A program made the position numbers and the translations under genes. Shown here one piece after another: positions 16,618-48,435 of a stretch of 64,000 nt of DNA (within the stretch, counting starts at the first letter, position 1; each line of letters begins with the position of its first letter). This DNA is from a virus, in the IMG/VR virus record IMGVR_UViG_3300037847_006528, positions 1-64,000 of that record; one strand, 5' to 3'. The notes beneath the pieces were generated by a model. It searched no databases, was not told where the DNA came from, and worked only from the letters and a program-made list of their open reading frames with translations.

Positions 16618-19168
16618 TTTTTACCTCCCTCAGTTTCATGTAAATGTCGGTATCAATTGGTTTAATTGTTTCGACAAAGAAGCTATCTCTGCTTTTAGAG
16701 CCATTTACAATAATAACTTGGGTTTTTTTCAATTTATTATACTGTAGAAAATCTGTTAGTTTATTACCTCTACTTGTGTCCATGAATAAAAAGTTCTTAG
16801 TAGCAGTATTATCCGCTAAAGATATTATCATATATTTGTTACCGTTTTGAGAGGTTCTTGTAAAGAAATCTTTTACCTCTCCCGCAACTTGGAATTGTTC
16901 TCTTTCAGGTAATTCTGAAATAACCTTTAGGTCTTGAAGGTTGGGGTATCTTTCTTTGAAGCATTCTCTTAAGTCATGAGAGTAACTATAACCAAGTAGT
17001 GAGCTTTCGTATCTCCACTTGGCAAACATCTCATGTTTTCTATTTTGAGAATATATTTTTTTATACTGATCGAACTTAGTTTTAAATGTTTTAAATCTCT
17101 TTTCAGACATGATAGGCTTGTTGTCATCTCCTAAGATTTCCTTGCCTATAACTTCTGATATTGCATCCAGTATATCATATCCAAACCTCTCCCCTATCTT
17201 ACAAAAGTTTCTTTTTTCTCTGTCTGTAAGAAGGTTGAATGCTTGTGCTTCTAGGACCATGCGGGTTCTATTGGTCCCCGCATGATCCATTGTTCCAGCT
17301 TGGATTAAAGCCGCAAGCACAGAGATGTTGATACCGCACTGTCTGGCAGCTAGAAATACCTCGTATTTGTTTGAAAATTCTATCCCTCTGAACTCTACAA
17401 GGCTCTCCATTGCCTTGAGAGAGATCCCTTTGATACTATTTAATCCGTATCTAATATTTTCTCCCTCTATCTTGAAATCGAAATCTGATTTAAATAAGCA
17501 AGGAGGAAGCATCTTCATCCCGAAATCCTCTAACTCTTCATTAACGCCAGATATAGTAGTTAATGGTTCTGGATCAAACTCAGCGCACTCAAGAACAGAC
17601 AGAAAGAATTCTTTAGGATAATTATGTTTTAGGAAAACTGTTTTAGCGGCTAAATCTGCATAAGCAAAACTGTGAGATTTGTTAAAAGAATAGTGGGAGG
17701 CGGCTATCAATGAATTCCAATAAAAGTCAGCTATCTGATCAGTCAGGTCTCTAGAACGAGCGGCTTCATAAATCCTATCTTTCCACTTGGGCATTTCATC
17801 AACTTTTTTCTTGCCAACAATTCTCCTTAACACCTCCGCTTCTTCAAGGGTGAGGCCGAAAACTTTGTGAGCTATCTGCATCAATTGCTCTTGATACAAG
17901 ATAACATTTTTTGACCAAGAAAGTATCTTGTCTAACTCAGGATGTATTTCCTGCACTAATGAGTTGTTTTTATTATCTCTATATGTGTCAACAAACTCAA
18001 GTGCTGCTGGTCGAGCTAGGGCTACAACGTCAGAAAGTTCATTTAAGTCATCTGGCTTGATCTGCCTACATACCTTAAAGTTTGTTTCAGCGGATATCTG
18101 AAAAAGACCTACAGGATGTCTAAAGTCCTGCAATATATCATAAATAATTTGAGAATTAGGATCTACATCTTCAATTTTTATACCAACTTTTTCGCAGGTT
18201 TTATGAGCAATCGTTAGTGTTCTTAAGCCAAGAATGTCAAACTTAACCATTAGGTCGGCAACATCTGACATATCATAACCCGTCACTAAATCTCCGTCTT
18301 TAGTTTTTTGCAATGGGACTACGTTCTCTATTTTCTCAGAACAGATTGCTATGCCAGATGGGTGGACCCCAGTATTCTTTGGCAAGTTCTCTATTTTTAA
18401 TGCATTTTTAAAAGTCCTTTTGTGCTCTCTTGCCCATCTTTTAAATTTACCACTTTCTTCTCTAGCTTGCTCTAAGGGAAACACATTACCGTGCAGTTTA
18501 GGTATCATGTCTGATACTTGATTAGCTTGATCTTCTTTTACTTCATCAAAGTATTTCGTAGCTTCTCTTATACACAGTTTGGCGCTAAAGGTGTTAAAGG
18601 TTAGTATTTTAGCAGTCTTTCCTTCATGCTTGCGCTCAATATATTGAATGACTTTATACCTTTGCTCGTAAGAAATATCTGAATCTACATCAGGTAAAAG
18701 GCTTCCAACTAGAAACTCTTTACCTCTTTTATCAGTGACTTTCTTTGCTCTAGATTTAGACACGAATCTCTCAAAAAACAAATCGTGGGGGATTGGGTCA
18801 ATGTTTGTTACTCCGAGCAGATATAGAACAAGAGAGCCAGCAGCAGAACCACGGCCAGCACCAGTTGGAATATTATTGTCATGACAAAAATTTAAAACGT
18901 CCCAGTTAAGCAAGATATAATCTGTAAAACCAAGCTCTTCAAAAGTTTCTAACTCTTGCTTTGCTCTATCAAAATAAACTTTTTTATTTTCATATTTTGT
19001 GATACCTTTATCACGCAAACCTTTTCTGGCTAGCTCATATAGAATCTCTTTTGTAGAACTATCAGGGCCAAGCCCTATTTCTTCTAGCTTAGTAGGGTCA
19101 ACGATTGTTTTGGGAAGCTCAACTCCCGCAGGTTCGCAATCATCATATGGTGTAAAGTCTTCAAACAT
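16610..19168 (-). CDS. dnaE: DNA polymerase III alpha core lacking the N-terminal PHP domain
   Basis: GRGSAAGS, PDVDSD, HPSG, KFDILGL and YSFNKSH motifs; C-terminal OB fold. Confidence 0.92.
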   Translation of the reverse strand: MFEDFTPYDDCEPAGVELPKTIVDPTKLEEIGLGPDSSTKEILYELARKGLRDKGITKYENKKVYFDRAKQELETFEELGFTDYILLNWDVLNFCHDNNIPTGAGRGSAAGSLVLYLLGVTNIDPIPHDLFFERFVSKSRAKKVTDKRGKEFLVGSLLPDVDSDISYEQRYKVIQYIERKHEGKTAKILTFNTFSAKLCIREATKYFDEVKEDQANQVSDMIPKLHGNVFPLEQAREESGKFKRWAREHKRTFKNALKIENLPKNTGVHPSGIAICSEKIENVVPLQKTKDGDLVTGYDMSDVADLMVKFDILGLRTLTIAHKTCEKVGIKIEDVDPNSQIIYDILQDFRHPVGLFQISAETNFKVCRQIKPDDLNELSDVVALARPAALEFVDTYRDNKNNSLVQEIHPELDKILSWSKNVILYQEQLMQIAHKVFGLTLEEAEVLRRIVGKKKVDEMPKWKDRIYEAARSRDLTDQIADFYWNSLIAASHYSFNKSHSFAYADLAAKTVFLKHNYPKEFFLSVLECAEFDPEPLTTISGVNEELEDFGMKMLPPCLFKSDFDFKIEGENIRYGLNSIKGISLKAMESLVEFRGIEFSNKYEVFLAARQCGINISVLAALIQAGTMDHAGTNRTRMVLEAQAFNLLTDREKRNFCKIGERFGYDILDAISEVIGKEILGDDNKPIMSEKRFKTFKTKFDQYKKIYSQNRKHEMFAKWRYESSLLGYSYSHDLRECFKERYPNLQDLKVISELPEREQFQVAGEVKDFFTRTSQNGNKYMIISLADNTATKNFLFMDTSRGNKLTDFLQYNKLKKTQVIIVNGSKSRDSFFVETIKPIDTDIYMKLREVKSD

Positions 19169-19782
19169 TATAAATCCATGTGTTTTTTAAGCTTAAGAAA
19201 TACTTGGTAGCACATCTTAATATCGTAAAGAGCATTGTGTAGCTTGCTCTCATCAAATTCTATATCAAAAAACTTTAAAAGTTGGTTTTGAGAAACCTTC
19301 GCTTTGAGGGTTCTGTCGTTAATTATCTTATATTGCCAACTCAGCAGATTACCCTTGGGTCTTTCTAGCTCTTCTCTGTAAGCTTTACCCAAAGCTCTTG
19401 TGTCTAAAATACGAGGCAAGTAAGAATAATCTGGCTCTTGTCCCAACAACCTTTGCAACACAGCAAGCATATAAACATCGAATCCCAACAAGTTTTGCCC
19501 CACTACAATGTATTGAGGGTCGAATATATACTTTTCAAACTTGCTCCAAACTTCATCTAAAGGCTTGGCTTTTCTGTTATAAGTATCCCAATTAAACCCC
19601 GTGATCTTCTTGACCACTTCGGGGATATTTAATTCTTTGTGAATTATAAACTCGTCATGAGTTTCTAATGTTTTATTTCCCTGACAGACTATCCAAGATA
19701 GCTGCCATGTTTTAGAAGAGAATAAATTTAAACCTTCTGTTTCAGTATCGAATACTAGATATTTTTGATTACTTGGCAACAT
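19168..19782 (-). CDS. dnaQ: DEDDh 3'-5' exonuclease (epsilon-like)
   Basis: FDTETEG, GQN..GFD and HNALYD motifs. Confidence 0.85.
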   Translation of the reverse strand: MLPSNQKYLVFDTETEGLNLFSSKTWQLSWIVCQGNKTLETHDEFIIHKELNIPEVVKKITGFNWDTYNRKAKPLDEVWSKFEKYIFDPQYIVVGQNLLGFDVYMLAVLQRLLGQEPDYSYLPRILDTRALGKAYREELERPKGNLLSWQYKIINDRTLKAKVSQNQLLKFFDIEFDESKLHNALYDIKMCYQVFLKLKKHMDL

Positions 19783-20467
19783 TTTCTAAATATGATTCGT
19801 AGCAAAATTCGTTAGAGGAAAAATCATTAAGGCGAGGGTTGCTAAAGGTAGGCACTCTGCCCTGTTTTCTGTTGCAGACAGCTTTATACATTTGGAATGC
19901 TTCAAAGTCATCCTTATTTCTATAATATATGCTTTTGCACTTTTCTGTTTTGACTTTTAATTTCTTGAGTGCTGCGCTTATCTGAAAATCAAATGGGTGG
20001 TTATTAGATTCTTCTATGTAAAAGTGATCATACTTGTCTAAAAATAGATCGCACATTCCAAAATGAAAGATGTTGTTGAATACATATGAATCGTAGAATG
20101 GAACCCCAATGCTTACATCATCAAGTTCTCCTTCTCCTAGATCTGATAAATTTAAGCACTCCCCTACACTGGTAAAACATTTGGTATAAAGTTTTCTAAC
20201 AACATGCACTCCTTTGTTGTTTTTGGGGAAAAAAATTAATTTGCTTGTCTTTTCAGTAATACTTGACTGAACAACGGGAACCTTTACTCCATAAACCATA
20301 GGGATTTCAGCGTGGAGGAACGCTTTATTAACAACCCTAAACCCGTAGAAGTTATCTTCTACTAATATCATCTTCTTGACATCTCCGCTTTGAGCAATGT
20401 CAATAAGATCCTCTACTCTGAGTAAGGATCGACCTATGCTAAACGTGCTTTTAAATAAAGGAATCAC
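19769..20467 (-). CDS. Stand-alone degenerate PHP domain of Pol III alpha
   Basis: PLFKSTFSIGRSLLRVEDLIDIA...ILVEDNFYGF and LIFFPKNNKG parallel the DnaE N-terminal pattern HLH.HS.YS..DG......L...A, TD..N..G and L.LLAKN..G. Confidence 0.75.
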   Translation of the reverse strand: MIPLFKSTFSIGRSLLRVEDLIDIAQSGDVKKMILVEDNFYGFRVVNKAFLHAEIPMVYGVKVPVVQSSITEKTSKLIFFPKNNKGVHVVRKLYTKCFTSVGECLNLSDLGEGELDDVSIGVPFYDSYVFNNIFHFGMCDLFLDKYDHFYIEESNNHPFDFQISAALKKLKVKTEKCKSIYYRNKDDFEAFQMYKAVCNRKQGRVPTFSNPRLNDFSSNEFCYESYLENVAK

Positions 20468-20476
20468 TCCTGCACT

Positions 20477-21517
20477 TTACAGAAGCTCCATTGGCTTGTC
20501 AAATGAAAAAGCAGGGCATCCTTCATATTTGACTTTTTCTATTTTCAAATCCTTGCTTTGCTTATCTTTTAGGTCTTTTTTGAAATCGGCAGATGCGACT
20601 CTAGTGCCATCCTTGTCTACTAAAGCGTAGAACTCTCTAGGGAACTTGAAAGGGCAGTGCCACATTGGGGTCCCATCTTTTTTCAGTTGTCCTGCATATT
20701 CTGCTCTACCACAAACCACCCTACCAGCAAACCCATCATCTCTACCTAGATAACCTTTATCGTAAGCTAGATTTTTAGATGCTGAAACTTCATTAAAATT
20801 ATTAATAATTTGTTGCACTTCTGTTAAGAAGTATTCGAAGCCCTCTAACTCATCTTCATCTAAAGGCTCCATTTCACAACATCCATCATTGTTGCAGTCG
20901 AACTTTACAAACAAGAACTCCATCTTTCTTCTTAGGAAGTCTGGGTATAAATGTTTTACCGCCAAACAATACATTAAATTCTGCATATTGTCGGTATACT
21001 CCTTACCAGAAAAGATTTGTTTTGATGTTTTAAAATCTCTAATAAGAGCAGTCTTTTTTCTCTTAAACAGAAAAAGCTTATCAATAAATCCTAATATGCG
21101 ATAGTTTTTGCCTTGTTCATTTACAGAAATGTCAAAATCTTTCTCGCTTATAGACTTAGTTGGCTTCCCGTCTTTGTCTCCAAAAAAATCGTAATTAAGA
21201 CCCTCTACCGTCATTTGGTTTATCAGGTCCATATTCTCAAAATCATCTATATTGTGCTTTTTAGCATATGCCTCTATCATCCTTTTGACTGGAGGTGAGG
21301 CAAAAGCGTTTTGAGTTTTAATTATACGGGTATAATGTTTTTTATGCTTAGGATTGCCCAAGTTTTCAAAAACAGCGTGACATATCGTTCCACGCAAACT
21401 TCCCTCGTTAGCTTTGTCTGGGAGCTTCAAGTGGTATTTGCACCAATACTGCCAAGAACACATTTGTAGCGTCTTTATGCGCGATGCAGAAAGAGGCTTG
21501 TTCTCAGAAGTCGTCAT
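20477..21517 (-). CDS. PD-(D/E)XK exonuclease (AddB/Cas4-like)
   Basis: LSASRI...C, G...H, G.ID and IRDFKTSK motifs; additional C-terminal Cys residues. Confidence 0.8.
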   Translation of the reverse strand: MTTSENKPLSASRIKTLQMCSWQYWCKYHLKLPDKANEGSLRGTICHAVFENLGNPKHKKHYTRIIKTQNAFASPPVKRMIEAYAKKHNIDDFENMDLINQMTVEGLNYDFFGDKDGKPTKSISEKDFDISVNEQGKNYRILGFIDKLFLFKRKKTALIRDFKTSKQIFSGKEYTDNMQNLMYCLAVKHLYPDFLRRKMEFLFVKFDCNNDGCCEMEPLDEDELEGFEYFLTEVQQIINNFNEVSASKNLAYDKGYLGRDDGFAGRVVCGRAEYAGQLKKDGTPMWHCPFKFPREFYALVDKDGTRVASADFKKDLKDKQSKDLKIEKVKYEGCPAFSFDKPMELL

Positions 21518-22550
21518 AATGAAATGAGTTTTTCTTTATAAGCTTCGAAAAAGAAGAAGAAAAACTTTTGTTTACACCTCGTTGATTCATATCTTTAGCA
21601 ATCTTTATCACTTTAGACATGGATTCTTGATGTTGTATATTATAGCAATCTGAAGCGTATTTTTCTATTTGATCTTTAGACATTTCCCCGAAGTCATTCT
21701 CTTCGGGTGGAATAAAGTATATTTTGTCAAAATCAATCGACTCAACCAATTTAAAAATAGATTTAATTGCTCCTTCAAACCCTCTGTTCACAGAAGACGT
21801 ATGATCATTATTGAATGACACAAAAACTTTTTTTATAGGTAATAAAGATAGCCTTGCTATAAATTTTGGAGAAATATTCAAACCAAAGGAAACAAGAACA
21901 TTTTTTATGCCGTTGTTGTATAGAGAGAGACAGTCCCCTACGGACTCCACAATGTGAACCGCTTCCTTTTCTTCTATGGCTTTTCGCACCTTATCAATAT
22001 TGTAATATGGGAAAAACCAACCTGATGATTTGCCCATGTGTAACCACTTTGGCCTGTCATCGCTAGTTACCTTTCTGCCAGAAAACCCATGTATTCTACC
22101 ATCTTTCCTGAAAATTGGGAATATCACCCTTTGATACATTTTTCCAGACATGGCCAAGCCGCACTTAAAGTCCTCAAGGGTTTCCTTGCTAATACCTTTC
22201 TCTAGGTAAAAATCGTGATGTGGTAAAAGCTTTGTTAGGACTTCAGGAGAATATGTCTTCTCTTCTTTCAATAGGTGTTTTTGTTTTATTCTTACTCCTA
22301 TATTTACACCGTTGTCCTTTAAATAATGCTTTACTGCATTGGGGTCTTTTGTGTTTAGGGTTTTTTGCAGGAGAGCTTCAAAGGGCATGAACTGAGAATC
22401 TTCTACATAGTCTTTCCAAACCCCAGTGTCCTTATAGATTTGAAGTGCTGTGGAATTGTCTCCAGCCCTATATACTGCGTTAGTTCTCCAGTATGAGCCA
22501 TGATCCTTGAGGCGATACCCAAGGTTTTCCAAGACCTCTTTGTAATCCAT
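21504..22550 (-). CDS. dnaG: DNA primase (Toprim)
   Basis: RVIFPI....GRI.GFSGR, PKW, IVES..D and FNND motifs. Confidence 0.85.
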   Translation of the reverse strand: MDYKEVLENLGYRLKDHGSYWRTNAVYRAGDNSTALQIYKDTGVWKDYVEDSQFMPFEALLQKTLNTKDPNAVKHYLKDNGVNIGVRIKQKHLLKEEKTYSPEVLTKLLPHHDFYLEKGISKETLEDFKCGLAMSGKMYQRVIFPIFRKDGRIHGFSGRKVTSDDRPKWLHMGKSSGWFFPYYNIDKVRKAIEEKEAVHIVESVGDCLSLYNNGIKNVLVSFGLNISPKFIARLSLLPIKKVFVSFNNDHTSSVNRGFEGAIKSIFKLVESIDFDKIYFIPPEENDFGEMSKDQIEKYASDCYNIQHQESMSKVIKIAKDMNQRGVNKSFSSSFSKLIKKNSFHYDDF

Positions 22551-24088
22551 TAATCTCTAAGGTTGATCGGTATTTCTTCTACCTCGTTTGTTCTAACTTC
22601 TATACCCTCTCCATTGAATGCATCCACCACATCTTGCAAGTCTCCACACTCAGTGATTCTAAAATTTTCGATATTTAAATTAATAAAATTTTGCTTCTTT
22701 GTTCCGTCTGGCATTTCTACTGGGTGTATCGCCCTTAATGCGCTCTTGCCTAAGTGCCTAGACTTGAGGTTTATTAGCTTATGAGTCCCGAAGTTAGAGC
22801 CTTCCTCATGGATTTCGTCTGCAACTTTTCTGCGAAGTAGAAACAAATGAGAGCAAAACTGAGTAATACCGTCAGACAAGGAAACCACGCTTTCGTCGTC
22901 TACAATTGAACCAGCATTCCTATTGTTGGTGATACCAAGCCTATTAGATTGCACAGAGGTGATCATTGATACGCAAGGCTTTCCGTCAAAAGCTAAATCG
23001 CGGTGGATTGTTTGTTTAAACTTGTGAACCATGTAGGAAACTTGTTGCCAACCGTCAACTTTTCCAATGCTGCCAAAATCACTTTTAATATAATCGAAGC
23101 TAAAAATTAGTGGGTTGCCTCTACCAATCTTTGAGAAGTAAAACCTCTTTAAGAGAGAACACATTTCATCAGGAGATAGGCCAGCCACATTCTCATAATA
23201 AAACTTCATATTTTTTATTTTTGACCAAGCAGATCTAACCTTTGCAACCACTTCGTCTACGGACCAGTCCTTGTATGCTGTTGTTCTCCACTTGCCTGTC
23301 TGCAAGAGCCAAACAGGTATGCCTGTCATAGCGGAACACTGCCTGAAAATAAGTTCTTCTTCGCTCATTTCACCGTTATCGAAGTGGAGCACAGGAACGT
23401 CATGCTCAGCAGATGCCTTTGTCGTGAAATCCATACAGAAGTTTGTTTTACCCACCCCTGAGCGAGCTACAATCACTGATATATTGCCAGCGAGTAGCAA
23501 TGACCCATACATTTCATTCATTCTAGGGTGAGGGCCAAGCATTCCGAAGTCCTCTACTGGATTATTCCCTCTTTCCTCCACAACCTCCTCCATCATTTCA
23601 AAGAGGTTGACAGGCCCAGCTTCTGTCATCTCAAAGTCTTTTATGTTTTTATTATAGAGTTGATCTGATTGCTCTATCAGTTCTCCATATTTTAAGTTGG
23701 GATCGGCACTTTTTACAAATGAGGCTACCTTCTTGCAGCTATTGTATATCTCTCTGCGAGCAGTGTATTTTTTGAGTTCTCTTACAGAGGAAATTAAAAT
23801 CTTTTCTGTAATCTTATAGAAAGCTAGCGAGAAAATATATTCTCCTATGTCGATACTGTCAGGAAAGCTTGCCTTAAGCTGTTGGATTCTTTGGACTAAA
23901 ATAGTTTCATCAATATCCTCTGCATTATTAAGAGCATTTTTTAGTAATTTAAATATTGATACATTTACTTTAGAGTCCTCTGAATAAAAATCACTTTCAT
24001 TTAGAAAACTGGATACTTCTTCCCATTTGTGCTGATGTTGCAACAATCCGCTGAGAACTTTCTTTTCTAAATCATAAGAAAATATCAT
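22550..24088 (-). CDS. dnaB: Replicative DNA helicase
   Basis: ARSGVGKT, GEMS, DYI, Q.NR and KSRH motifs; DnaB N-terminal domain. Confidence 0.88.
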   Translation of the reverse strand: MIFSYDLEKKVLSGLLQHQHKWEEVSSFLNESDFYSEDSKVNVSIFKLLKNALNNAEDIDETILVQRIQQLKASFPDSIDIGEYIFSLAFYKITEKILISSVRELKKYTARREIYNSCKKVASFVKSADPNLKYGELIEQSDQLYNKNIKDFEMTEAGPVNLFEMMEEVVEERGNNPVEDFGMLGPHPRMNEMYGSLLLAGNISVIVARSGVGKTNFCMDFTTKASAEHDVPVLHFDNGEMSEEELIFRQCSAMTGIPVWLLQTGKWRTTAYKDWSVDEVVAKVRSAWSKIKNMKFYYENVAGLSPDEMCSLLKRFYFSKIGRGNPLIFSFDYIKSDFGSIGKVDGWQQVSYMVHKFKQTIHRDLAFDGKPCVSMITSVQSNRLGITNNRNAGSIVDDESVVSLSDGITQFCSHLFLLRRKVADEIHEEGSNFGTHKLINLKSRHLGKSALRAIHPVEMPDGTKKQNFINLNIENFRITECGDLQDVVDAFNGEGIEVRTNEVEEIPINLRD

Positions 24089-24315
24089 AAACCTATTTCA
24101 CCTTCTTTTTTCGCCATAGCTAACTCTATTAATTTACTAAGAGCCATCTCTACGCAAGGGTTTTCTGTTTTGGTAGTCATACTAGGACAACCATTTTTGT
24201 CAACATAAAGAAGTAAAAACCCTCTATTACCACCGTTTGCAGAGCCAGTGGAGTCATAAATTTTATCAAGAAGAGATTGAGGTAATCCTTGTTGTTCATC
24301 GTCTTGTAACTTCAT
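24085..24315 (-). CDS. hypothetical protein
   Basis: 76-aa ORF with ATGA overlaps on both sides. Confidence 0.65.
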   Translation of the reverse strand: MKLQDDEQQGLPQSLLDKIYDSTGSANGGNRGFLLLYVDKNGCPSMTTKTENPCVEMALSKLIELAMAKKEGEIGL

Positions 24316-24728
24316 TTCAATAGCTTAATCAAACTTTTTGGGTATTTTTTTGAATCCAAGACATCAGACTCTAGGACTCTAATTAATTTAATTTTATTAA
24401 TTTCGCAGAAATATTCTTTCTTCTCATCTCTATGGAGTTGATGAAGGAATTTTTGGCGAGAATTAGAATGAAAAAACTGATTATATCTGTAGTGCTGATT
24501 ACCGTCCACTTCTACCGCTATTTTTTGTGTAGAGTTATAAAAATCTAAACTCATTCTAGTCCCCGCGACAGGAAACTCTTCAAAAACAACATCAGCAAAC
24601 CAATAATCTTTTAAGTGATTTTTTACGTCTTTTTGTATACCGCTTTTGCAGTCAGATTCCCAATCAATAAGATATTTGCTGACGTTTTTTATCTTCCTCT
24701 CTCGACCATTAGAGCATAAAAATATCAT
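24312..24728 (-). CDS. Vsr/DUF559-like endonuclease
   Basis: LDFY....IAVEVDGNQH and RD..K...C....I.LIR motifs. Confidence 0.75.
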   Translation of the reverse strand: MIFLCSNGRERKIKNVSKYLIDWESDCKSGIQKDVKNHLKDYWFADVVFEEFPVAGTRMSLDFYNSTQKIAVEVDGNQHYRYNQFFHSNSRQKFLHQLHRDEKKEYFCEINKIKLIRVLESDVLDSKKYPKSLIKLLK

Positions 24729-25849
24729 TGCTTAAGAATATTCTGTTTTACAAAGTCAACGAGAAGGGAAGTTATTTTTTCATCTGACTCTAGAAACTCA
24801 TACACTGCTTTAATTCCTTGATACGAATCTTTTGTTTCGATTTTCTGTTCGTTTAAATAAGTTTTTACCTTTTCATCCAGTTTAATCCAAGCTCCAGATT
24901 TCTCTAGGTAGCCCCACATAAGTAGCATGTCAACAACTTCTCTCTCAAGCCAAATAGACCTGCCATTTTTCCTTCCGTGCTTTATTGGATAGGTTACAAT
25001 TTGACCTGTAGCCTCATTCGTTGATTTCAAGATCAGAACCTTGGCGTTATGTCCATAAATCTTGTTATCTGGCGTAATTTGCTCTGTTGGCTTCTCTAAA
25101 ATCTTGTCTCCTTTATTTTGTTTTTTAAATTGGAGAATCCAATCTGGGTAATGCAAAATTGCATTTCCACCACTACTGTCTGTTTGATTGTTTGGGTCTT
25201 GCTTAGCATACATGCTGGTAGTAATGCTTGATCTAACTTGAGAAATCATAATGCACATGTGTCCAAACTTGCTCATGCCCAAACTCACCCTCTTCAAAAA
25301 ATCAGAGGTCATTAAAGCTCCCCCTGCTACCTTTCTAGCATCAGAAGAACCTTTTTCTAAATCTTCTTTTGTAATCAAACCGTCCATGCTGTCGATTACA
25401 ATGCAGAATTTCTCTTTGTCGGGGTTGTTCTTCAGTAGCCCTCTGAGGAAATCAATCATAGTATCCATGATATGACACTCAAGAACTAGACATGTTCCCA
25501 CATCCCAATCTTCCGCTGAATGGACAAACTTAATACCCGCTCTATCTTTAATCTCTTGGCTGAGTCTTCCTTCAGCCATTACAAAAAGCCCTTTAGAATT
25601 TTCTACGGTTTTAAGCATGTTGTGCATAACATGCAGAGCTTCATTTGTTTTACCCCCTTCGTTAGCTCCAATAAACCTATGCAAGCCAGAACCAAAACCA
25701 CCGCCCAAAACGTGATCAAGAATCATAGATCCACTCGACACTAGATATGGTTCTGCCCCCTCTTCTAAATTGTAGTGGTATTCTTTGTTTGATTTGAGGA
25801 ATGCCTCTGTATAGTCCTTTGATCCGCTTTTCTTCTTCATTTTAGTCAT
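24725..25849 (-). CDS. recA: RecA/UvsX recombinase
   Basis: LD.VLGGG, GANEGGKT, IVIDS, ISQVR and SGGNA motifs. Confidence 0.85.
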   Translation of the reverse strand: MTKMKKKSGSKDYTEAFLKSNKEYHYNLEEGAEPYLVSSGSMILDHVLGGGFGSGLHRFIGANEGGKTNEALHVMHNMLKTVENSKGLFVMAEGRLSQEIKDRAGIKFVHSAEDWDVGTCLVLECHIMDTMIDFLRGLLKNNPDKEKFCIVIDSMDGLITKEDLEKGSSDARKVAGGALMTSDFLKRVSLGMSKFGHMCIMISQVRSSITTSMYAKQDPNNQTDSSGGNAILHYPDWILQFKKQNKGDKILEKPTEQITPDNKIYGHNAKVLILKSTNEATGQIVTYPIKHGRKNGRSIWLEREVVDMLLMWGYLEKSGAWIKLDEKVKTYLNEQKIETKDSYQGIKAVYEFLESDEKITSLLVDFVKQNILKQ

Positions 25850-27301: not shown

Positions 27302-27311
27302 TATCAGTCTA

Positions 27312-27902: not shown

Positions 27903-27903
27903 T

Positions 27904-40993: not shown

Positions 40994-41590
40994 TTGATCG
41001 AAGATTTAACAGATTGCGCTCTCACTGATTTAATCAAAGAAGACAATAATGAAGATGCCTTAAACGAGTTGATTTCAAGGCATTCTGGGATATATGTCGA
41101 TATGCTCAAAAAATTTGGATTCAAATGCTTGACAAGCAATCAAGTTCAGGACATTATGAGCGAAAAGGACTATGTTATATACAAAGCGGCCCTTGAATAT
41201 GATGAAACCAAAGCGAAGTTCTCTACTCATTTAGCTAATAAAGCTAAATATCTTTGTTTAACACAGAAGACTAAAAACAAAAACAATAAGATATCTTCAA
41301 ATTTCGAAGATGTGCAGTTTTCCCAAAAAGATAAAGGTTGCAACCCAGCAGAATCTTGTGATTTAAATGATTCTTTTGCTAGAATATTAAACTTGATTAA
41401 CAAACACAAGGATAAGAGGCTCCAGACTATATTCCACGAAAGATACTTTTGTGGTAGAAGGGGAAAACTACAACCTTGGAAAGAAGTAGCTAAAAAATTA
41501 AATCTTTCTGCTCAAGGCTGTATAAATATACACGATAAAGCCATAAAAGAATTAAACTACAAAATCAATAATGAGACGATTAAATTTTGA
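40994..41590 (+). CDS. Phage sigma-70-family sigma factor
   Basis: A.NELI.RH, A...YD..K.KFST (region 2) and W.EVAK.LNLS......I (region 4 HTH). Confidence 0.8.
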   Translation: MIEDLTDCALTDLIKEDNNEDALNELISRHSGIYVDMLKKFGFKCLTSNQVQDIMSEKDYVIYKAALEYDETKAKFSTHLANKAKYLCLTQKTKNKNNKISSNFEDVQFSQKDKGCNPAESCDLNDSFARILNLINKHKDKRLQTIFHERYFCGRRGKLQPWKEVAKKLNLSAQGCINIHDKAIKELNYKINNETIKF

Positions 41591-42695: not shown

Positions 42696-43022
42696 ATGAA
42701 CTATAAATTAAACACTCACCTATTAGATAATTTTTTTGATGCATTCGGGACTAGCAAACACGCTGATGTGAAAGATTGCGGAGATGTATATTCTGCTGAA
42801 TTTGAGCTAGCAGGATTTGCCAAAGAAGATATTGAGATAACTGCCACTAACGACAACCTAGTCATCAAGGCAAAAAATGATAAGCGCCAAAAGGATTTTA
42901 AATTAAATTTATATGGTGCTGTTTCTGTTGAGGACATTTCTTGTGACACAGAAAATGGACTTCTAACGGTAACTATGCCTAAAAAATGTGTTAGCGAGCA
43001 ACGAAAGATCAAAATTCAGTAG
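42696..43022 (+). CDS. Small heat-shock protein (Hsp20)
   Basis: ELAGF.KEDI.I....L.IKA and ENGLL.VT.PK motifs; C-terminal IKI. Confidence 0.9.
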   Translation: MNYKLNTHLLDNFFDAFGTSKHADVKDCGDVYSAEFELAGFAKEDIEITATNDNLVIKAKNDKRQKDFKLNLYGAVSVEDISCDTENGLLTVTMPKKCVSEQRKIKIQ

Positions 43023-44247: not shown

Positions 44248-44285
44248 CCTACAATAGATTATCTTTAATAGATTACACGAATTCA

Positions 44286-44852
44286 ATGAAATTTACTCTT
44301 TATAAGCCAAACTCTAAAAATACAGGGGCAGCTTTTAGCTTTGACCTAGCTAAAGACAAGAAGGGCAACGCAGTTATGTATGTATCAATGATCCAACAAC
44401 ATAGTTGGAATGATAAGACCAAAAGCGGCTCTTTCAAAGAAAATGCTAAAAATCCTGAAAAATCAGGCACAATTAAGCTCTCTGCAAATGAAGCTGGAGA
44501 GATCCTTTCTTCATTTAAAACAAGAATACCATTTGTTGCTTTTCATAGAAATAATGAAGACACAACAATTATTAAATTTACACCTTGGGATAAAAAAAGA
44601 AAAATTATGGGCAAAGACGGAGATGAGTGGCACGAAACTCCAGCCTTCGGGATAACCGTAAGTAGGAACTCATCTCAAGTATATAAACTCCCTCTTGAAG
44701 CGGGAGAAACGGAAGTGTTATCAGAATTGCTAAAAAAATATATTTTAAATTCTTTTGTTACAAATGATTCTTACACAACTCAACCTCCAAAAGAAGAAGC
44801 TCGCAAATCTGAAAAAGCCGCAGAACTTGAAGATTTAGATGTCCCATTCTAA
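44286..44852 (+). CDS. Whirly-like ssDNA-binding protein with SSB-type acidic tip
   Basis: LYK....G.A, KLS.NE.GEI......F..FH and LPL...E..VL...L patterns; C-terminus EDLDVPF. Confidence 0.6.
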   Translation: MKFTLYKPNSKNTGAAFSFDLAKDKKGNAVMYVSMIQQHSWNDKTKSGSFKENAKNPEKSGTIKLSANEAGEILSSFKTRIPFVAFHRNNEDTTIIKFTPWDKKRKIMGKDGDEWHETPAFGITVSRNSSQVYKLPLEAGETEVLSELLKKYILNSFVTNDSYTTQPPKEEARKSEKAAELEDLDVPF

Positions 44853-46542
44853 GAAACTAAAAGTTTTAATTCACTCTAATCATTCTCGGTTAGTCACTGG
44901 ATTTGGCAAAAACGCAAGAAATGTATTACTTGGTCTGAATGAAGATCCAGATATAGAAGTAATAGAAGCAGCGAACGGACCAAGATATGGTGCTGACTTA
45001 ATGACACCTTGGGAATCTTATGGGACACAACCTATAAATTCTTCCTTGATACAGGCTATTCAAGGAGACCCTGCTAAAGAGAGAGGTGCTAGCTATGGCT
45101 TCTATACCATAGATCAAATTATAGATGAATGTAAGCCAGATGTATATCTTGGGATTGAGGACATATGGGCTTTTGGAGGATACGAACACAAGCCTTGGTG
45201 GAACAAAATAAATAAAGTTCTCTGGACAACCTTGGATAGTTTACCGATTTTAGATCAAGCCTTACAAATGGAACCTCATTGTGATAAGATGCTAGTTTGG
45301 GCATCTTTCGCAGAGGAAGAAATGAAAAGACTAGGTTATAAAAACGTAGAGACCCTCCACGGTGCTGTAGATTATACAAACTTTAAACCTCTTGATAATA
45401 AAAAAGAACTAAGAGAAAAATTTAATCTTCAAGATAATTATGTAATTGGTTTTGTTTTTAAAAACCAACTAAGAAAATCTGTCCCAAATCTTTTAAGAGG
45501 ATTTAAAATTTTAAAAGAAAAAAATCCAGACTTAAAACCTAAATTGCTTTTGCATACAGATTGGGGGGAAAGGGGCTGGGATATTCCTAAATACATAAAA
45601 GAACTAGAATTAGATCCTAGTGATATTCTATCCACTTACGTTTGCCACGCTTGTGATCATTATTCAGTCTTACCATATGAAGGCGAGGACAGAAAATGCC
45701 CAAGTTGCAATGCAGAAAAATCCTTTAAAACCAAGACAAGCTCTAAAGGAGTGGGTGAAAAAGAATTAAATGAAATTTATAATTTAATGGATGTTTATTG
45801 CCACCCATTCACCAGCGGTGGTCAAGAACTTCCAGTGCAAGAAGCTAAAGCCGCTGGGTTAATAACTTTAGTCACAGAGTATTCCTGTGGGACAGACTCT
45901 TGTTATGAACATCAAGGAGGAATTCCACTAAAATGGAATGAATACAGAGAACCTCATACTCAGTTTATTAAAGCCTCCACATGCCCCCACGACATAGCTC
46001 AACAGTTGCAAAAAGTTGGTAGAATGAGTGATGATGATAAATTTATTCTATCAAATAAAGGAACCAAGTATGTAAAAGAAAATTTTTCCGTTTCAGCCAC
46101 CGTCGAAAAGCTTAAGAAAATTCTTCTTGATCTTAAAAAACCCACTAAAGAAGAACAAGAGGAAAAAGCTACTGAACAACCTCTAATGCTTAATGATGTT
46201 CTTGATGATGAGGGCCAAGAAAACAGAATAGCAGTTGTTCTGCCAGAGTCGGCAGGAGATATATTAATATTGAATTCTCTAATGGATAACCTCAAAAACC
46301 TTTATCCAGAAAAAAACATATATGTATTCACTAAACCTGAGTTTTACCAAATGATTGATGATAATCCAAATGTGCATAAACTTCTGCCATATCAACAATC
46401 TTTAGATAACTTGCTTTATTTAGAGGGAAGAGCAGATCATGAAGGATTCTTTCAAATGGCGTTTTTGCCAAACATTGGGACTCAAAGACATCTTAACTAT
46501 CTTCACAATGGTGAAGATAAAACGCAATTTCAATTAACATGA
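44839..46542 (+). CDS. GT4 glycosyltransferase with CxxC...CxxC insert and C-terminal GT9-like domain
   Basis: TGFG, NQLRK, CHAC...CPSC and GG.ELP..EA motifs; then SAGDILI...LK..YP...I.VFT...NPNV. Confidence 0.75.
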   Translation: MSHSKKLKVLIHSNHSRLVTGFGKNARNVLLGLNEDPDIEVIEAANGPRYGADLMTPWESYGTQPINSSLIQAIQGDPAKERGASYGFYTIDQIIDECKPDVYLGIEDIWAFGGYEHKPWWNKINKVLWTTLDSLPILDQALQMEPHCDKMLVWASFAEEEMKRLGYKNVETLHGAVDYTNFKPLDNKKELREKFNLQDNYVIGFVFKNQLRKSVPNLLRGFKILKEKNPDLKPKLLLHTDWGERGWDIPKYIKELELDPSDILSTYVCHACDHYSVLPYEGEDRKCPSCNAEKSFKTKTSSKGVGEKELNEIYNLMDVYCHPFTSGGQELPVQEAKAAGLITLVTEYSCGTDSCYEHQGGIPLKWNEYREPHTQFIKASTCPHDIAQQLQKVGRMSDDDKFILSNKGTKYVKENFSVSATVEKLKKILLDLKKPTKEEQEEKATEQPLMLNDVLDDEGQENRIAVVLPESAGDILILNSLMDNLKNLYPEKNIYVFTKPEFYQMIDDNPNVHKLLPYQQSLDNLLYLEGRADHEGFFQMAFLPNIGTQRHLNYLHNGEDKTQFQLT

Positions 46543-47663
46543 GTCATCTAGCAGAAGAATACGCCAAGTGCTGCGGAGTTAAAATAGGAAAACCTATTTT
46601 AAAACCTCACTATTTTCCTGTTCTTTACGATAAGTATATAACAATACATAACGATAGAAAAGTTCAAGCAAAAGAGTATGACATGTGGCCTGATGTTATC
46701 CAAATACTTAGGCCATATTTAGGAGATATAAAAATTATACAAATAGGAGCACAAGGAGAAGAAACAATACAGGGCGTAGACAAGCATATTCCTACAGCAT
46801 CTCTTAAGCAGTCTTCTTATATTATAGATAAGGGGCTAGGTCATGTAGGAATAGACAGTGTGCCAGTTCATATAGCTTCAGCCTTAGATAAGCCAGTTGT
46901 TGGTATTTATGCACATACTTACGCTAATACATGTAAACCCTTGTGGAACGACAAATCAAAATCAATACAAATTGAATCACACAGAAATGGAAGGAAGCCT
47001 TCTTTCTCTTTAGAAGAACATCCCAAAACAATCAACCTAATCAAACCAGAAGAAATAGCTCAAGCTATGCTTGATGTATTAGAGATAGATAAAAAAATAA
47101 CACATGAAACTATTTTTATTGGCGATCACTATACTTCTAATTTTGTGGAAGTAATTCCATCTCAGCCAACCACCGTTAAAGCCCCCCTGATTGATGTAAG
47201 AATGGATATTTGCCATAATGAAGAAGTGCTCGGTGGAGTTCTAGAAAGAAACGATGTAGAAGTCACCACAAATAAACCCATTCCGTTACCTCTATTAGAT
47301 ACAAGAAAAATTAAAAAAATTGTTTATAAAAGTGATTTTTTTGACTTAGACTTTTGTGAAGCTGTGAAAAGCAGAGCGATACCAATGTCCTTAGAGTGCA
47401 AGTCTTCAGATAATCTAAAAAAACAAAGAGCCAGACTTTTTGATTATTTGATAAATTCATTAGACGAGAATGAGATAATAAAAAAGAATAAAAAAAGACT
47501 ACCACAAGAAGATCTTGGGAAAATCAATATTGCGAGTAATAAAAAAGTTATTTGTGGAGATCAAATTTATGAAAGTATGTATCATTTGAATGACAAAAAA
47601 AATTCAGACGATTTTTATCTTGATTTAGATTTTTATAGAGTTTATACTGATTCAAATGAGTGA
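46539..47663 (+). CDS. GT9-like glycosyltransferase
   Basis: K.YD.W..V, IIQIG and H.GIDS.P.HIASAL.KP.V motifs. Confidence 0.75.
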   Translation: MSHLAEEYAKCCGVKIGKPILKPHYFPVLYDKYITIHNDRKVQAKEYDMWPDVIQILRPYLGDIKIIQIGAQGEETIQGVDKHIPTASLKQSSYIIDKGLGHVGIDSVPVHIASALDKPVVGIYAHTYANTCKPLWNDKSKSIQIESHRNGRKPSFSLEEHPKTINLIKPEEIAQAMLDVLEIDKKITHETIFIGDHYTSNFVEVIPSQPTTVKAPLIDVRMDICHNEEVLGGVLERNDVEVTTNKPIPLPLLDTRKIKKIVYKSDFFDLDFCEAVKSRAIPMSLECKSSDNLKKQRARLFDYLINSLDENEIIKKNKKRLPQEDLGKINIASNKKVICGDQIYESMYHLNDKKNSDDFYLDLDFYRVYTDSNE

Positions 47664-48435
47664 GAAAAAGATCTACGGACCAGATATCTACAAGCGTAAC
47701 GAGCATGGGTTGCTTGAAAATGTAGACTATAAATTTAACGAGGACGGCTCTGTCAACTGGAGAGCCATGATCAAGGAAGAGTTTCTCTACCCTAACAAAG
47801 ATTGGTTTGCATCTAGGAAGAAAGATGTCCCTACTTCTGTTGAGGGTCTCTCTGATAAGCAACTTCTCATTATGCTTGGAGGCATCAAAGAGCTAGCTAA
47901 AATGAGGGGCTATCATTCTATTGATTTTAAAGTGAATAATGTTTCAAGTGATTATGTCACCGCCAAATGCCAAATAGACTGGATAGAAAATTATGAGAGC
48001 GCCAATACTGGCATATATCCTCGATATACAGATATAGCGAATGCCACCCTTGCAAATACAGACGCTTTTTGTGCTAAATTCCTAGAAACAATCGCCTGTA
48101 ATCGTGCTTTTGTCCGTTGTGTGCGTAATTATCTCAATATCCACATTGTGGGTGCAGATGAGATTGATAAGTCAAAAGGAGCTAATAATTCCAATGCTGT
48201 TGAATATGATGCCTCTAGCGACTCTGCTATGCTGCCTTTAACGCCCTCAGGAGCACTCCAGAAGGCTTTGGATGAGGATAACGGGGTAAAGTCCTTCGAC
48301 AAGTTCAAAGAGCTTCTACGGGCCTTGTGGAAGGAAGAAATCTACAGAAATGAACAAGCTGCAAACTGGAAGTCTTATGAAGACATCCCAGCCAAGGAGT
48401 GCAGAAAGCTCATTGCAATCTGTAAAAAATCATAA
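47656..48435 (+). CDS. Single-strand annealing protein (Rad52/Sak/RecT-like fold)
   Basis: G..ELA..RG and A.A...N......E.IA.NRAF.R.VR..LNI..VG.DEI patterns. Confidence 0.55.
   Translation: MSEKKIYGPDIYKRNEHGLLENVDYKFNEDGSVNWRAMIKEEFLYPNKDWFASRKKDVPTSVEGLSDKQLLIMLGGIKELAKMRGYHSIDFKVNNVSSDYVTAKCQIDWIENYESANTGIYPRYTDIANATLANTDAFCAKFLETIACNRAFVRCVRNYLNIHIVGADEIDKSKGANNSNAVEYDASSDSAMLPLTPSGALQKALDEDNGVKSFDKFKELLRALWKEEIYRNEQAANWKSYEDIPAKECRKLIAICKKS

What the first reader, a model, noticed from the sequence alone, without database searches (positions are those of the whole stretch)
44286..44852. Whirly-fold ssDNA-binding protein with a bacterial SSB-type acidic tip
Seen: the pattern FTLYK...GAAFSF / KLSANEAGEI...FVAFH / FGITVS...YKLPLEAGETEVLSELL parallels plant Whirly proteins (YKGKAAL / SLSVTEIGS...FFH / FFNLSV...YIPV..AEFAVL, recalled from memory). 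The protein ends EDLDVPF, like the E. coli SSB tip DDDIPF. No OB-fold SSB is visible in the window despite a complete replisome. Inference: this is the phage replicative SSB built on the Whirly/PC4 fold, which bears on the origin of organellar Whirly proteins.
Basis: partly seen in the sequence, partly recalled or inferred. Interest (0 to 1): 0.72.

Follow-up and report, generated by a model that had tools for sequence, protein, structure and literature searches.

The report
Whirly-fold phage SSB with bacterial-type tip
An uncultured marine phage encodes a protein with the plant "Whirly" DNA-binding fold, a floppy tail and the short acidic end-piece that bacterial single-stranded-DNA-binding proteins use to recruit partners, so it probably does the SSB job on a different fold.

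Summary
The ORF at 44286..44852 (+) is real. The query has no direct Pfam, PHROGs, NCBIfam or PDB sequence hit.

Evidence that the fold is Whirly:
- A profile of 101 relatives finds plant Whirly chains as its six best PDB hits (E 7e-4).
- 4 of 100 relatives pass Pfam Whirly's own cut-off.
- A homotetramer is predicted (ipSAE 0.91, best control 0.00).

Evidence for an SSB-type tail:
- A variable, disordered linker precedes an acidic tip.
- The tip ends xPF in 80 of 80 viral loci.

Evidence on other SSBs:
- No OB-fold, gp32-type or Enc34-type SSB was found in the 82-kb record or in two complete ~147-kb relatives.
- Five larger relatives (163-205 kb) carry both a tipped OB-fold SSB and the Whirly protein.

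Best reading, at 0.6: a tetrameric Whirly-fold ssDNA-binding hub that serves as this phage's SSB. Actual ssDNA binding, the tip's partners and any link to the origin of plant Whirlies are untested.

The parts
44286..44852 (+). CDS of the 188-aa Whirly-fold protein (P0001), stop codon included
   Evidence: 258 homologues; 401 clusters at 50% identity
44286..44756 (+). Residues 1-157: basic Whirly core (pI 9.5). It has two beta-sheet-plus-helix repeats, with family-specific insertions at residues 38-59 and 103-118.
44490..44501 (+). E69-A70-G71-E72, the cap of helix 1. E69, G71 and E72 are invariant.
   Evidence: residues 67-84 lie in the predicted tetramer interface; aligned to the TEIGS block of plant Whirly
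44697..44708 (+). E138-A139-G140-E141, the cap of helix 2, repeating the helix-1 motif. E138, G140 and E141 are invariant.
   Evidence: residues 138-159 lie in the predicted tetramer interface; aligned to the KAEFAVL block of plant Whirly
44757..44822 (+). Residues 158-179: variable, low-confidence linker
   Evidence: pLDDT 44-52; tail length 27-53 aa in A1 and 5-77 aa in A2; gapped, unconserved columns
44823..44849 (+). Residues 180-188, ELEDLDVPF: acidic tip ending in PF
   Evidence: P187 and F188 invariant in 53 of 53 sequences; 80 of 80 loci end xPF; the only such tip among 412 ORFs of the record
44248..44285 (.). 38-bp divergent intergenic region with AATAGATTA twice (44253-44261 and 44267-44275). 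A weak sigma-70-like site spans 44227-44255 (+).
   Evidence: Neither the motif count nor the promoter count exceeds shuffles. The start of the minus-strand gene at 44247 is my reading of the sequence.
44839..48435 (+). Conserved downstream genes: GT-B-like 567 aa (44839-46542), GT9-like 374 aa (46539-47663) and a 259-aa ORF (47656-48435)
   Evidence: They follow the Whirly gene in 78, 77 and 76 of 80 loci; Pfam and PHROGs hits
41571..41590 (+). Overlap of the sigma-like gene (40994-41590) and the 363-aa GT-like gene (41571-42662). This is the position where larger relatives carry an OB-fold SSB gene.
16610..25849 (-). Replication and recombination module: DnaE core, epsilon-like exonuclease, PHP, PD-(D/E)XK nuclease, DnaG, DnaB, HNH endonuclease, UvsX-like recombinase
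   Evidence: In 10 of 80 related loci the Whirly gene lies directly downstream of this module on the same strand.

Best explanation
P0001 is a divergent member of the Whirly superfamily. It probably assembles into a homotetramer through its two helices, and probably binds single-stranded DNA on its basic, aromatic-rich beta-sheet faces. Each subunit carries a disordered linker that ends in an acidic xPF tip of the bacterial SSB type. It therefore has the same overall design as a bacterial SSB tetramer, with four DNA-binding cores and four flexible recruiting tails, but on a non-OB fold.

In this ~147-kb phage lineage no other SSB is recognisable. The protein most likely coats ssDNA at phage replication and recombination intermediates. 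It would use the tip to recruit phage enzymes (DnaE, exonuclease, DnaG, UvsX-like, PD-(D/E)XK) and/or host SSB-interacting proteins, for example the host clamp loader, since the phage encodes no recognisable clamp or loader.

Shown: the ORF, its conservation, the fold, homology to Whirly, the tail-and-tip architecture, and the lack of other recognisable SSBs. Predicted: the tetramer. Inferred: ssDNA binding, tip-partner contacts and the role at the fork.
For: Fold:
- AlphaFold pLDDT 86.4, pTM 0.75.
- The top 10 Foldseek PDB hits are all Whirly, best E 2.2e-5.

Homology:
- The A2 profile's six best PDB hits are plant Whirlies, E 6.6e-4 to 0.056.
- 14 of 101 members hit PF08536 at E<=1.
- 4 of 100 exceed its 23-bit cut-off. 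One is P0159, at 26.6 bits over profile positions 10-134 of 136. P0159 matches the query at E 1.4e-19.

Oligomer:
- The four-copy model scores ipSAE 0.91 against a best control of 0.00. The runs agree in at least 87% of contacts and the partner pLDDT is at least 87.
- The tool's calibration: the mark was reached by 20 of 30 solved pairs and 1 of 23 single chains.
- The interface is formed by helices 67-84 and 138-159.

Tail and tip:
- pLDDT is 44-52 after residue 160.
- P187 and F188 are invariant.
- 115 of 116 close homologues end PF, and 80 of 80 loci end xPF.
- Of 98 full-length distant representatives, 30 end PF, 17 end in another F, 16 in W and 2 in Y.
- The core has pI 9.5 and the tail pI 4.3.

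No other SSB:
- PF00436 is absent from G000 (apart from a 12.7-bit hit inside DnaE), and from G001 and G002 (both rated 100% complete) and G008.
- There are no PF08804 or PF10991 matches.
- No SSB name appears among the 65 Pfam-scanned and 63 PHROGs-scanned ORFs.
- It is the only acidic-aromatic tip among 412 ORFs of the record.
- It is the only PF tip among 1101 ORFs of G002 and 937 ORFs of G001.

Context:
- In 10 of 80 loci the gene sits directly downstream of DnaG-PDEXK-PHP-exo-DnaE-AAA on the same strand.
- These include G003, G004 and G006, where the OB-SSB gene lies elsewhere in the genome.
- No clamp or clamp loader is found.
Against: - No biochemical data exist, so ssDNA binding is inferred from the fold alone. 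Proteins of this fold also bind RNA, for example ChmC and MRP1/2.
- 5 of the 8 related records searched (G003-G007) carry an OB-fold SSB with its own acidic tip as well as a tipped Whirly homologue. The two are therefore not simple alternatives, and the Whirly protein may have a separate role.
- The window's record is only 59% complete. An SSB could lie in the missing part, although complete relatives lack one.
- The host's own SSB could serve replication.
- In the window the gene is about 20 kb from the replication module. Its most conserved neighbours are glycosyltransferase-like genes, which the SSB reading does not explain.
- The controls for PF08804 and PF10991 rang in no control genome, so those two negatives are weak.
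- The tetramer pass may reflect resemblance to solved Whirly tetramers (caveat).
- 24 of 98 distant representatives have no aromatic residue in the last three positions.
Confidence: 0.6

Rival explanations
1. It is an accessory ssDNA-binding protein for recombination or repair, not the main fork SSB. It would work like plant organellar Whirlies or the T5 PC4-like factor: it protects or channels ssDNA during recombination-dependent replication, while the host SSB (or, in larger relatives, the phage OB SSB) covers the lagging strand. The tip would let it share or compete for the same partners.
For: - It coexists with a tipped OB-fold SSB in G003-G007.
- The phage encodes a UvsX-like recombinase and a PD-(D/E)XK nuclease.
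- Plant Whirlies coexist with other SSBs and act in organelle genome stability (PMC9070903, passages read).
- The T5 PC4-like protein is implicated in recombination-dependent replication (PMC7549692, passages read).
Against: - In G001, G002 and the window's record no other SSB is recognisable.
- In genomes that hold both genes, the Whirly gene, not the OB-SSB gene, follows the DnaE module.
Confidence: 0.2
2. It is an RNA-binding or transcription-associated factor, like ChmC of nucleus-forming jumbo phages, trypanosome MRP1/2 or potato p24. The acidic tail would then act as an autoinhibitory or solubilising element rather than a recruiting tip.
For: - VIA Z to the RNA-binding MRP1/2 (14.4-15.1) is nearly as high as to Whirly.
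- ChmC is a phage Whirly-fold tetramer that prefers RNA and has a disordered C-terminal region ending in an S/D/E-rich stretch (10.1101/2023.09.22.559000, passages read).
- Plant Whirly has a C-terminal Glu-Trp that folds back on the domain (PMC9070903, passages read).
Against: - The xPF end is invariant in 80 of 80 loci. It has the same kind of ending as the OB-SSB tips in related phages: EVPF, DIPF, DIPF, DIPF and EEPW.
- The tail has no N/G-rich region like ChmC's (sequence).
- Sequence-level similarity is to the plant ssDNA-binding Whirlies.
Confidence: 0.1
3. It is mainly a tip mimic. The phage would display a host-like SSB tip on an unrelated scaffold to capture or titrate host SSB-interacting proteins. 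Alternatively, it would avoid host defences that sense OB-fold phage SSBs. Bulk ssDNA coating would be secondary.
For: - The tip is the most conserved part of a variable tail.
- The non-OB scaffold is confined to viral sequences. 23 of the 30 nearest Atlas clusters are 'hypothetical'; all four shown are mostly viral, the top three 91-94%.
- Only 3 hits were found in 185,579 prokaryote genomes, all on MAG contigs.
Against: - The core is also strongly conserved, with basic and aromatic invariant residues, as expected if it binds nucleic acid.
- No defence or anti-defence context was seen.
- This reading does not exclude the best explanation.
Confidence: 0.07

Closest known systems
Plant Whirly proteins (StWhy1/p24 of PBF-2, StWhy2, AtWHY1-3; Pfam PF08536)
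   Same: - Detectable sequence homology at profile level.
- Predicted helix-mediated tetramer.
- A variable C-terminal region with an acidic-aromatic element. Plant Whirlies have a conserved Glu-Trp that contacts the domain (PMC9070903, passages read).
   Different: - The query itself does not reach the Pfam model.
- There is no KGKAAL motif; the sequence has YKPNSKNTG.
- It has family-specific insertions at residues 38-59 and 103-118.
- There is no transit peptide.
- It ends in a bacterial-type xPF tip after a disordered linker.
- It is encoded by a phage.
Bacterial OB-fold SSB (PF00436; E. coli SSB with its 9-residue acidic tip and disordered linker)
   Same: - Same architecture of DNA-binding core, variable disordered linker and acidic tip ending in a hydrophobic residue then Pro-Phe.
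- Predicted tetramer, hence four tails.
- The OB SSBs of related phages end EVPF, DIPF, DIPF, DIPF or EEPW.
- The role of the tip in recruiting at least 17 partner proteins is taken from the abstract of PMC7145534 (search listing). The E. coli tip sequence itself is recalled.
   Different: - Unrelated fold. E. coli SSB 1eqq ranks 43rd, with TM 0.13-0.16.
- There is no PF00436 match.
- How the DNA is bound must differ.
- Partner binding is untested.
ChmC (PhiPA3 gp61, PhiKZ gp67, Goslar gp176) of Chimalliviridae
   Same: It is a phage-encoded Whirly-fold protein that forms a homotetramer and has a disordered C-terminal region with an acidic stretch (10.1101/2023.09.22.559000, passages read).
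   Different: - ChmC prefers RNA, binds phage mRNAs and forms condensates through a ~40-residue N/G-rich region.
- P0001 has a 31-residue tail with no such region and a terminal PF.
- BFVD matches to Pseudomonas phage EL proteins are weak, with TM 0.26-0.33.
- Whether this phage forms a nucleus was not examined.
Non-OB or atypical phage ssDNA-binding proteins: the T5 PC4-like protein (PDB 4bg7), and T7 gp2.5 / Enc34 ORF6
   Same: - The T5 protein belongs to the same PC4-like superfold and is tied to recombination-dependent replication (PMC7549692, passages read).
- Enc34 ORF6 and T7 gp2.5 are phage SSBs with unstructured C-terminal segments (PMC5686142, abstract in the listing).
   Different: - The T5 protein is a type II (single-repeat, intermolecular) PC4 dimer, whereas P0001 is a type I tandem repeat.
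- Enc34 and T7 SSBs are OB-fold variants.
- No PF10991 match was found in these genomes.

Membership tests
Whirly (PF08536 / Whirly superfamily) | Tandem beta-beta-beta-beta-alpha repeats forming two sheets with a helix pair (type I PC4-like fold) | tested here: met
   [not shown]
Whirly (PF08536 / Whirly superfamily) | The query itself matches the Pfam Whirly model above its 23-bit cut-off | tested here: not met
   No PF08536 hit for P0001 at E<=10, and none in the record at E<=10.
Whirly (PF08536 / Whirly superfamily) | Sequence homology through relatives or a profile | tested here: met
   4 of 100 relatives score 23.6-26.6 bits, above the cut-off. 14 of 101 hit at E<=1. The family profile's six best PDB hits are plant Whirlies, E 6.6e-4 to 0.056.
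Whirly (PF08536 / Whirly superfamily) | Homotetramer built around the helices | tested here: met
   Prediction only. ipSAE 0.91 against a best control of 0.00; at least 87% contact agreement; pLDDT at least 87; interface formed by helices 67-84 and 138-159. The pass may reflect resemblance to solved Whirly tetramers.
Whirly (higher-plant family) | KGKAAL ssDNA-binding and 24-mer assembly motif | tested here: not met
   The sequence has LYKPNSKNTGAAF. The profile alignment to Whirly does not cover this region. Algal Whirly-like proteins also lack the motif (PMC9070903, passages read).
Whirly (PF08536 / Whirly superfamily) | Binds single-stranded nucleic acid | not testable with these tools
   Only indirect support: core pI 9.5 and conserved K, W, F and H residues.
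Bacterial SSB (PF00436) | OB-fold DNA-binding core | tested here: not met
   No PF00436 hit. 1eqq ranks 43rd with TM 0.13.
Bacterial SSB (PF00436) | Disordered linker followed by an acidic tip ending in hydrophobic-Pro-Phe | tested here: met
   pLDDT 44-52 in the tail. The protein ends ELEDLDVPF. P187 and F188 are invariant. 80 of 80 loci end xPF.
Bacterial SSB (PF00436) | The tip binds partner proteins of replication, recombination or repair | not tested
No partner was tested.
ChmC (Chimalliviridae) | N/G-rich condensate-forming C-terminal region and a nucleus-forming phage context | tested here: not met
   The 31-residue tail (VTNDSY...DVPF) has no N/G-rich stretch. The nucleus-shell protein was not searched for.
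PC4-like type II (PC4, T5 PC4-like, YdbC) | A single beta4-alpha repeat that dimerises between chains | tested here: not met
   The model has two repeats in one chain. The best matches are type I proteins.

The most novel reading that the evidence does not exclude
A widespread lineage of marine phages has rebuilt the bacterial SSB hub on a Whirly scaffold. That hub is a tetramer with four disordered tails ending in the xPF recruiting tip. One clade of ~147-kb genomes has dispensed with the OB-fold SSB altogether.

If so, the conserved acidic-aromatic C-terminal element of plant Whirlies (Glu-Trp) could be a relic of such a tip. Organellar Whirlies could then derive from phage replication proteins, as several other organellar replication enzymes do.
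Probability: 0.15. Interest if true: 0.9.

Novelty: new variant of a known kind. Interest (0 to 1): 0.7.

Why it matters
OB-fold SSBs with an acidic recruiting tip are nearly universal in bacteria and common in phages. A large phage family would show that the hub design (multivalent core plus flexible recruiting tails) is selected for independently of the fold. That family spans 401 clusters at 50% identity and puts the same tail and tip on a Whirly tetramer. In some genomes it is the only recognisable SSB candidate.

The finding gives a tractable bacterial-virus model for Whirly biochemistry. It supplies natural paired systems, with the OB SSB and the Whirly SSB in one genome, for asking what each does. 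It makes the question of where plant organellar Whirlies came from testable by phylogeny.

It is also relevant to annotation. None of the homologues listed is named as an SSB. They are 'hypothetical', unnamed, or in one case labelled 'glutaredoxin'. PHROGs and NCBIfam have no family for them.

Tried and rejected
Direct searches with the query:
- Pfam gave only SANT_DAMP1_like at E 0.06, below its cut-off.
- PHROGs gave phrog_5383 at E 0.092.
- NCBIfam gave nothing.
- PDB phmmer gave AAR2 at E 0.27 as its best hit.
- I treat all of these as noise.

Cultured phages:
- tblastn of P0001, P0159 and P0246 against 50,697 phage records found no match.
- TerL and DnaE find only distant isolates, at no more than 26% and about 31% identity. 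The phage has no cultured relative in that collection.

PHROGs on 10 distant relatives gave one weak hit, phrog_2544 at E 0.003.

Tip residue against OB-SSB presence:
- I considered whether the residue before PF (V versus A or P) tracks loss of the OB SSB.
- It holds for the 8 searched records. G001, G002 and G008 have VPF and no OB SSB. G003-G007 have APF or PPF and an OB SSB.
- It fails in the loci. L071 has VPF next to an OB SSB. L034, L035 and L038 have APF with the sigma and GT genes abutting.
- I dropped it as a claim.

Promoter and repeat in the 38-bp upstream region are not above shuffles.

The other acidic-aromatic tail in G001 is the RNR small subunit, which is expected for that enzyme.

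Tool calls that gave nothing:
- The search of earlier findings was not open.
- The search for related loci with A2 failed because no stretch was conserved enough. It was repeated with A1.

Literature: five searches found no paper describing a phage Whirly-fold protein with an SSB-type tip. The library lacks most subscription journals.
Full report
**Observation**

Window 44286..44852 (+) is an ATG-initiated ORF of 188 codons. The ORF lies in an uncultured marine phage record of 82,224 bases, rated 59% complete. The window's GC content is 36.8%.

The upstream gene on the other strand most likely starts at 44247. That is my reading of the sequence. It leaves a 38-bp divergent intergenic region.

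**Family**

The query alone hits nothing meaningful:
- Pfam: best E 0.06, an unrelated family below its cut-off.
- PHROGs: E 0.092.
- NCBIfam: nothing.
- PDB sequences: best E 0.27, AAR2.

It nevertheless has many relatives:
- 258 proteins at E<=1e-3 among 343 candidates. Of the 120 listed, all are unnamed or 'hypothetical' except one labelled 'glutaredoxin'.
- 401 clusters at 50% identity in the exhaustive search, of which 163 are at E<=1e-10.
- 321 viral-contig stretches, of which 80 were kept as loci.
- Only 3 hits in one genome from each of 185,579 prokaryote species. All three are MAG contigs: two binned as Flavobacteriales or Flavobacteriaceae, and one 139-kb contig binned as Saccharibacteria.
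- All four Atlas rows shown of the 30 nearest clusters are mostly viral: 91-94% viral for the top three, 63% for the PF08536-bearing row.
- No cultured phage has a tblastn match.

**Fold and homology**

An AlphaFold model built on a 53-sequence alignment is confident, with mean pLDDT 86.4 and pTM 0.75. It shows two sheet-plus-helix repeats (strands 2-65 with helix 67-79; strands 83-137 with helix 139-157). pLDDT drops to 44-52 after about residue 160.

Structural comparisons:
- Foldseek against the PDB returns plant Whirly entries as its first ten hits (E 2.2e-5 to 2.3e-4, TM 0.49-0.65). MRP1/2 and Pur-alpha follow.
- The best viral predicted structure is a UniProt entry auto-named 'Whirly transcription factor [uncultured Caudovirales phage]', at E 4.9e-6.

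The relationship is also visible in sequence:
- A profile of 101 diverse relatives (A2) finds p24, AtWHY2, StWhy2, AtWHY1 and AtWHY3 as its six best PDB hits, at E 6.6e-4 to 0.056. The remaining five hits are noise at E>1.
- That alignment pairs the family's 'klnetEageii...efsafH' with Whirly 'SLSVTEIGSIIS...CEFFH'. It pairs 'lelgEaevlk' with 'VTKAEFAVL'.
- 14 of 101 members hit PF08536 at E<=1.
- 4 of 100 exceed its 23-bit cut-off. P0159 is the best, at 26.6 bits over nearly the whole model.

The protein is therefore a divergent Whirly-superfamily member, not merely a look-alike. It lacks the higher-plant KGKAAL motif. Its most conserved family-specific element is an insertion at residues 38-59 that holds Q38, W41, S49 and F50.

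**Oligomer**

Four copies of residues 1-160 are predicted to assemble with ipSAE 0.91, against a best control of 0.00 across three controls.
- The runs agree in at least 87% of contacts, and the partner pLDDT is at least 87.
- In the tool's calibration the mark was reached by 20 of 30 solved pairs and 1 of 23 single chains. That calibration used two copies, not four.
- The interface is formed by helix 1 (67-84) and helix 2 (138-159). It includes the invariant EAGE caps of both helices.
- This matches the Whirly 'whirligig' logic. It may partly be recall of solved Whirly tetramers, and it is a prediction, not a measurement.

**Tail and tip**

After the core (pI 9.5) comes a 31-residue tail (pI 4.3). 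Tail length varies from 27 to 53 residues in close relatives and from 5 to 77 in distant ones. The tail is unconserved apart from its end.
- 115 of 116 full-length close homologues end in PF, and 112 of 116 have at least 4 acidic residues in the last 12.
- All 80 viral loci end xPF: VPF 50, APF 22, PPF 8.
- Among 98 full-length distant representatives, 30 end PF, 17 end in another F, 16 in W and 2 in Y. A further 9 have an aromatic residue at position -2 or -3, and 24 have none.

This is the linker-plus-acidic-tip design of bacterial SSBs. The nine-residue tip, the disordered linker and the 17 or more partners are as stated in the abstract of PMC7145534, seen in a search listing. The E. coli tip sequence itself is recalled.

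**Is there another SSB?**

- In the 82-kb record PF00436 gives only a 12.7-bit hit inside the DnaE ORF.
- No SSB appears among the 65 ORFs scanned with Pfam or the 63 scanned with PHROGs.
- A fold-agnostic scan looked for tails with at least 4 D/E and at most 1 K/R/H in the last 10 residues, and an aromatic residue in the last 2. It picks only this ORF among 412 ORFs of 50 aa or more.
- Two relatives rated 100% complete also lack PF00436. These are G001 (147.7 kb) and G002 (146.9 kb, with terminal repeats), whose homologues are 54-55% identical to the query.
- In those two genomes the Whirly homologue is the only PF-ended acidic tail among 937 and 1101 ORFs. The other long acidic-aromatic tail in G001 belongs to the RNR small subunit.
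- The gp32 and Enc34/T7-2.5 families are also absent. Those two searches rang in no control genome, so they are weak negatives.

**The complication**

Of 8 related records searched (two further handles were not held), five larger ones carry an OB-fold SSB above Pfam's cut-off. These are G003-G007, at 163-205 kb.
- Those OB SSBs have their own tips: ...EDEVPF, ...MDDIPF, ...EEEPW, ...FADIPF and ...MEDIPF.
- The same genomes keep a tipped Whirly homologue...DEAPF...EDPPF and ...FEDAPF.
- The OB-SSB gene sits between a sigma-like gene and a 365-aa glycosyltransferase-like gene. Their homologues in the window (40994-41590 and 41571-42662) overlap by 20 bases, so that slot is empty here.
- Within the fetched ±10 kb, an OB SSB is seen in 8 of 80 loci, all from the more distant clades.

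The family as a whole is therefore not a straight replacement of the OB SSB. The window's clade is one in which only the Whirly protein remains, or one in which the OB SSB was never acquired. I did not root this.

**Context**

- The Whirly gene is followed by the same three genes in 78, 77 and 76 of 80 loci. These are a GT-B-like 567-aa gene, a GT9-like 374-aa gene and a 259-aa ORF. The linkage persists down to 41% identity and is unexplained by any reading offered here.
- In 10 of 80 loci the gene lies directly downstream of DnaG-PD-(D/E)XK-PHP-exonuclease-DnaE-AAA on the same strand.
- These 10 loci include G003, G004 and G006, where the OB-SSB gene is tens of kilobases away.
- In the window the replication module is at 16.6-25.8 kb on the minus strand.
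- No beta clamp or clamp-loader match exists in G000, G001, G002 or G008. The phage replisome presumably borrows host parts, and a host-type tip could help with that. This last point is inference.

**Mechanism proposed**

The protein is a basic Whirly tetramer that binds ssDNA on its sheet faces. It carries four flexible acidic tails whose xPF ends dock on phage and/or host replication and recombination proteins. It thus serves as this phage's SSB.
- Shown: the ORF, its conservation, the fold, the homology, the tail-and-tip design, and the lack of other recognisable SSBs.
- Predicted: the tetramer.
- Inferred: ssDNA binding, tip partners and the role at the fork.

I put this at 0.6. The rivals are:
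- An accessory recombination or repair ssDNA binder working beside the host or OB SSB (0.2).
- An RNA-binding or transcription-associated protein like ChmC, MRP or p24 (0.1).
- A tip mimic aimed at host partners or at evading defences (0.07).

**Comparison with the literature**

- Phage Whirly-fold proteins are known. ChmC of nucleus-forming jumbo phages is a tetramer that prefers RNA and forms condensates through an N/G-rich tail (10.1101/2023.09.22.559000, passages read).
- Phage T5 has a type II PC4-like protein linked to recombination-dependent replication (PMC7549692, passages read).
- Plant Whirlies carry a conserved C-terminal Glu-Trp that contacts the domain and dampens ssDNA binding (PMC9070903, passages read). 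This parallels the acidic-aromatic ends seen here.
- Five literature searches found no description of a phage Whirly-fold protein with an SSB-type tip. The library misses most subscription journals.
- Automatic annotation already labels a few relatives 'Whirly transcription factor'.

**Verdict**

I class this as a new variant of a known kind. Interest is 0.7.

Noticed in passing
window 5939-7544, 12315-13160, 26324-37887, 41571-42662, 44839-47663: There is an unusually large set of sugar-nucleotide and glycosyltransferase genes for a phage. It includes GDP-mannose dehydratase, three epimerase/dehydratases, a DegT-type aminotransferase and a formyltransferase. It also includes a methyltransferase, a cytidylyltransferase, a PfkB kinase, a cupin, and GT2, GT4, GT9, GT11 and GT25-like transferases. 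The target (virion, DNA or host surface) is unknown.
   Followed up: no
window 44839-48435; loci L002-L081: The GT-B-like, GT9-like and 259-aa genes follow the Whirly gene in 78, 77 and 76 of 80 loci, even where everything upstream is rearranged. In relatives, the OB-SSB gene is likewise followed by a paralogous GT-B-like gene of the same family, phrog_2170. Why SSB-type genes pair with this glycosyltransferase family is unexplained.
   Followed up: partly
window 16610-20467 (-): The Pol III alpha functions are split over three adjacent ORFs: a PHP domain (19769-20467), an epsilon-like RNase T exonuclease (19168-19782) and the polymerase core with fingers and HhH (16610-19168). A ClpB-like double-AAA protein (14269-16617) follows, and stays linked to DnaE in relatives.
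   Followed up: partly
window 41571-41590; L082-L086: The sigma-like gene and the 363-aa GT-like gene overlap here. In five larger relatives an OB-fold SSB gene of 129-145 codons sits between their homologues.
   Followed up: yes
window 24312-24728 (-): An HNH or homing-endonuclease-like ORF lies between the DnaB and UvsX-like genes.
   Followed up: no
window 44248-44285: The 38-bp divergent intergenic region holds AATAGATTA twice, 14 bp apart. There are only 5 copies in the window, against 2.1 expected, and 8 of 100 shuffles reach 5. A weak sigma-70-like site ends at 44255.
   Followed up: partly
window 42696-43022 (+): A phage-encoded Hsp20/alpha-crystallin gene. It is present in 28 of 80 related loci.
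   Followed up: no
L104, L105, L106: The only hits in prokaryote genome assemblies are MAG contigs. Two short ones are binned as Flavobacteriales or Flavobacteriaceae, and one 139-kb contig is binned as Saccharibacteria. This is a weak hint that the host is a marine Flavobacteriia, and the 139-kb contig is probably a mis-binned phage genome.
   Followed up: no
window 44839-47663 (+): The C-terminal ~130 residues of the 567-aa protein read like the N-terminal half of a GT9 heptosyltransferase. The next ORF matches only the C-terminal part of the GT9 model, positions 169-227 of 247. This could be a split or rearranged GT9. It rests on my reading of the sequence and was not tested.
   Followed up: no
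G000, G001, G002, G008 (whole records): No beta clamp (PF00712) or clamp-loader (PF13177) match was found, although DnaE, DnaB and DnaG are present. These phages probably depend on host processivity factors.
   Followed up: partly
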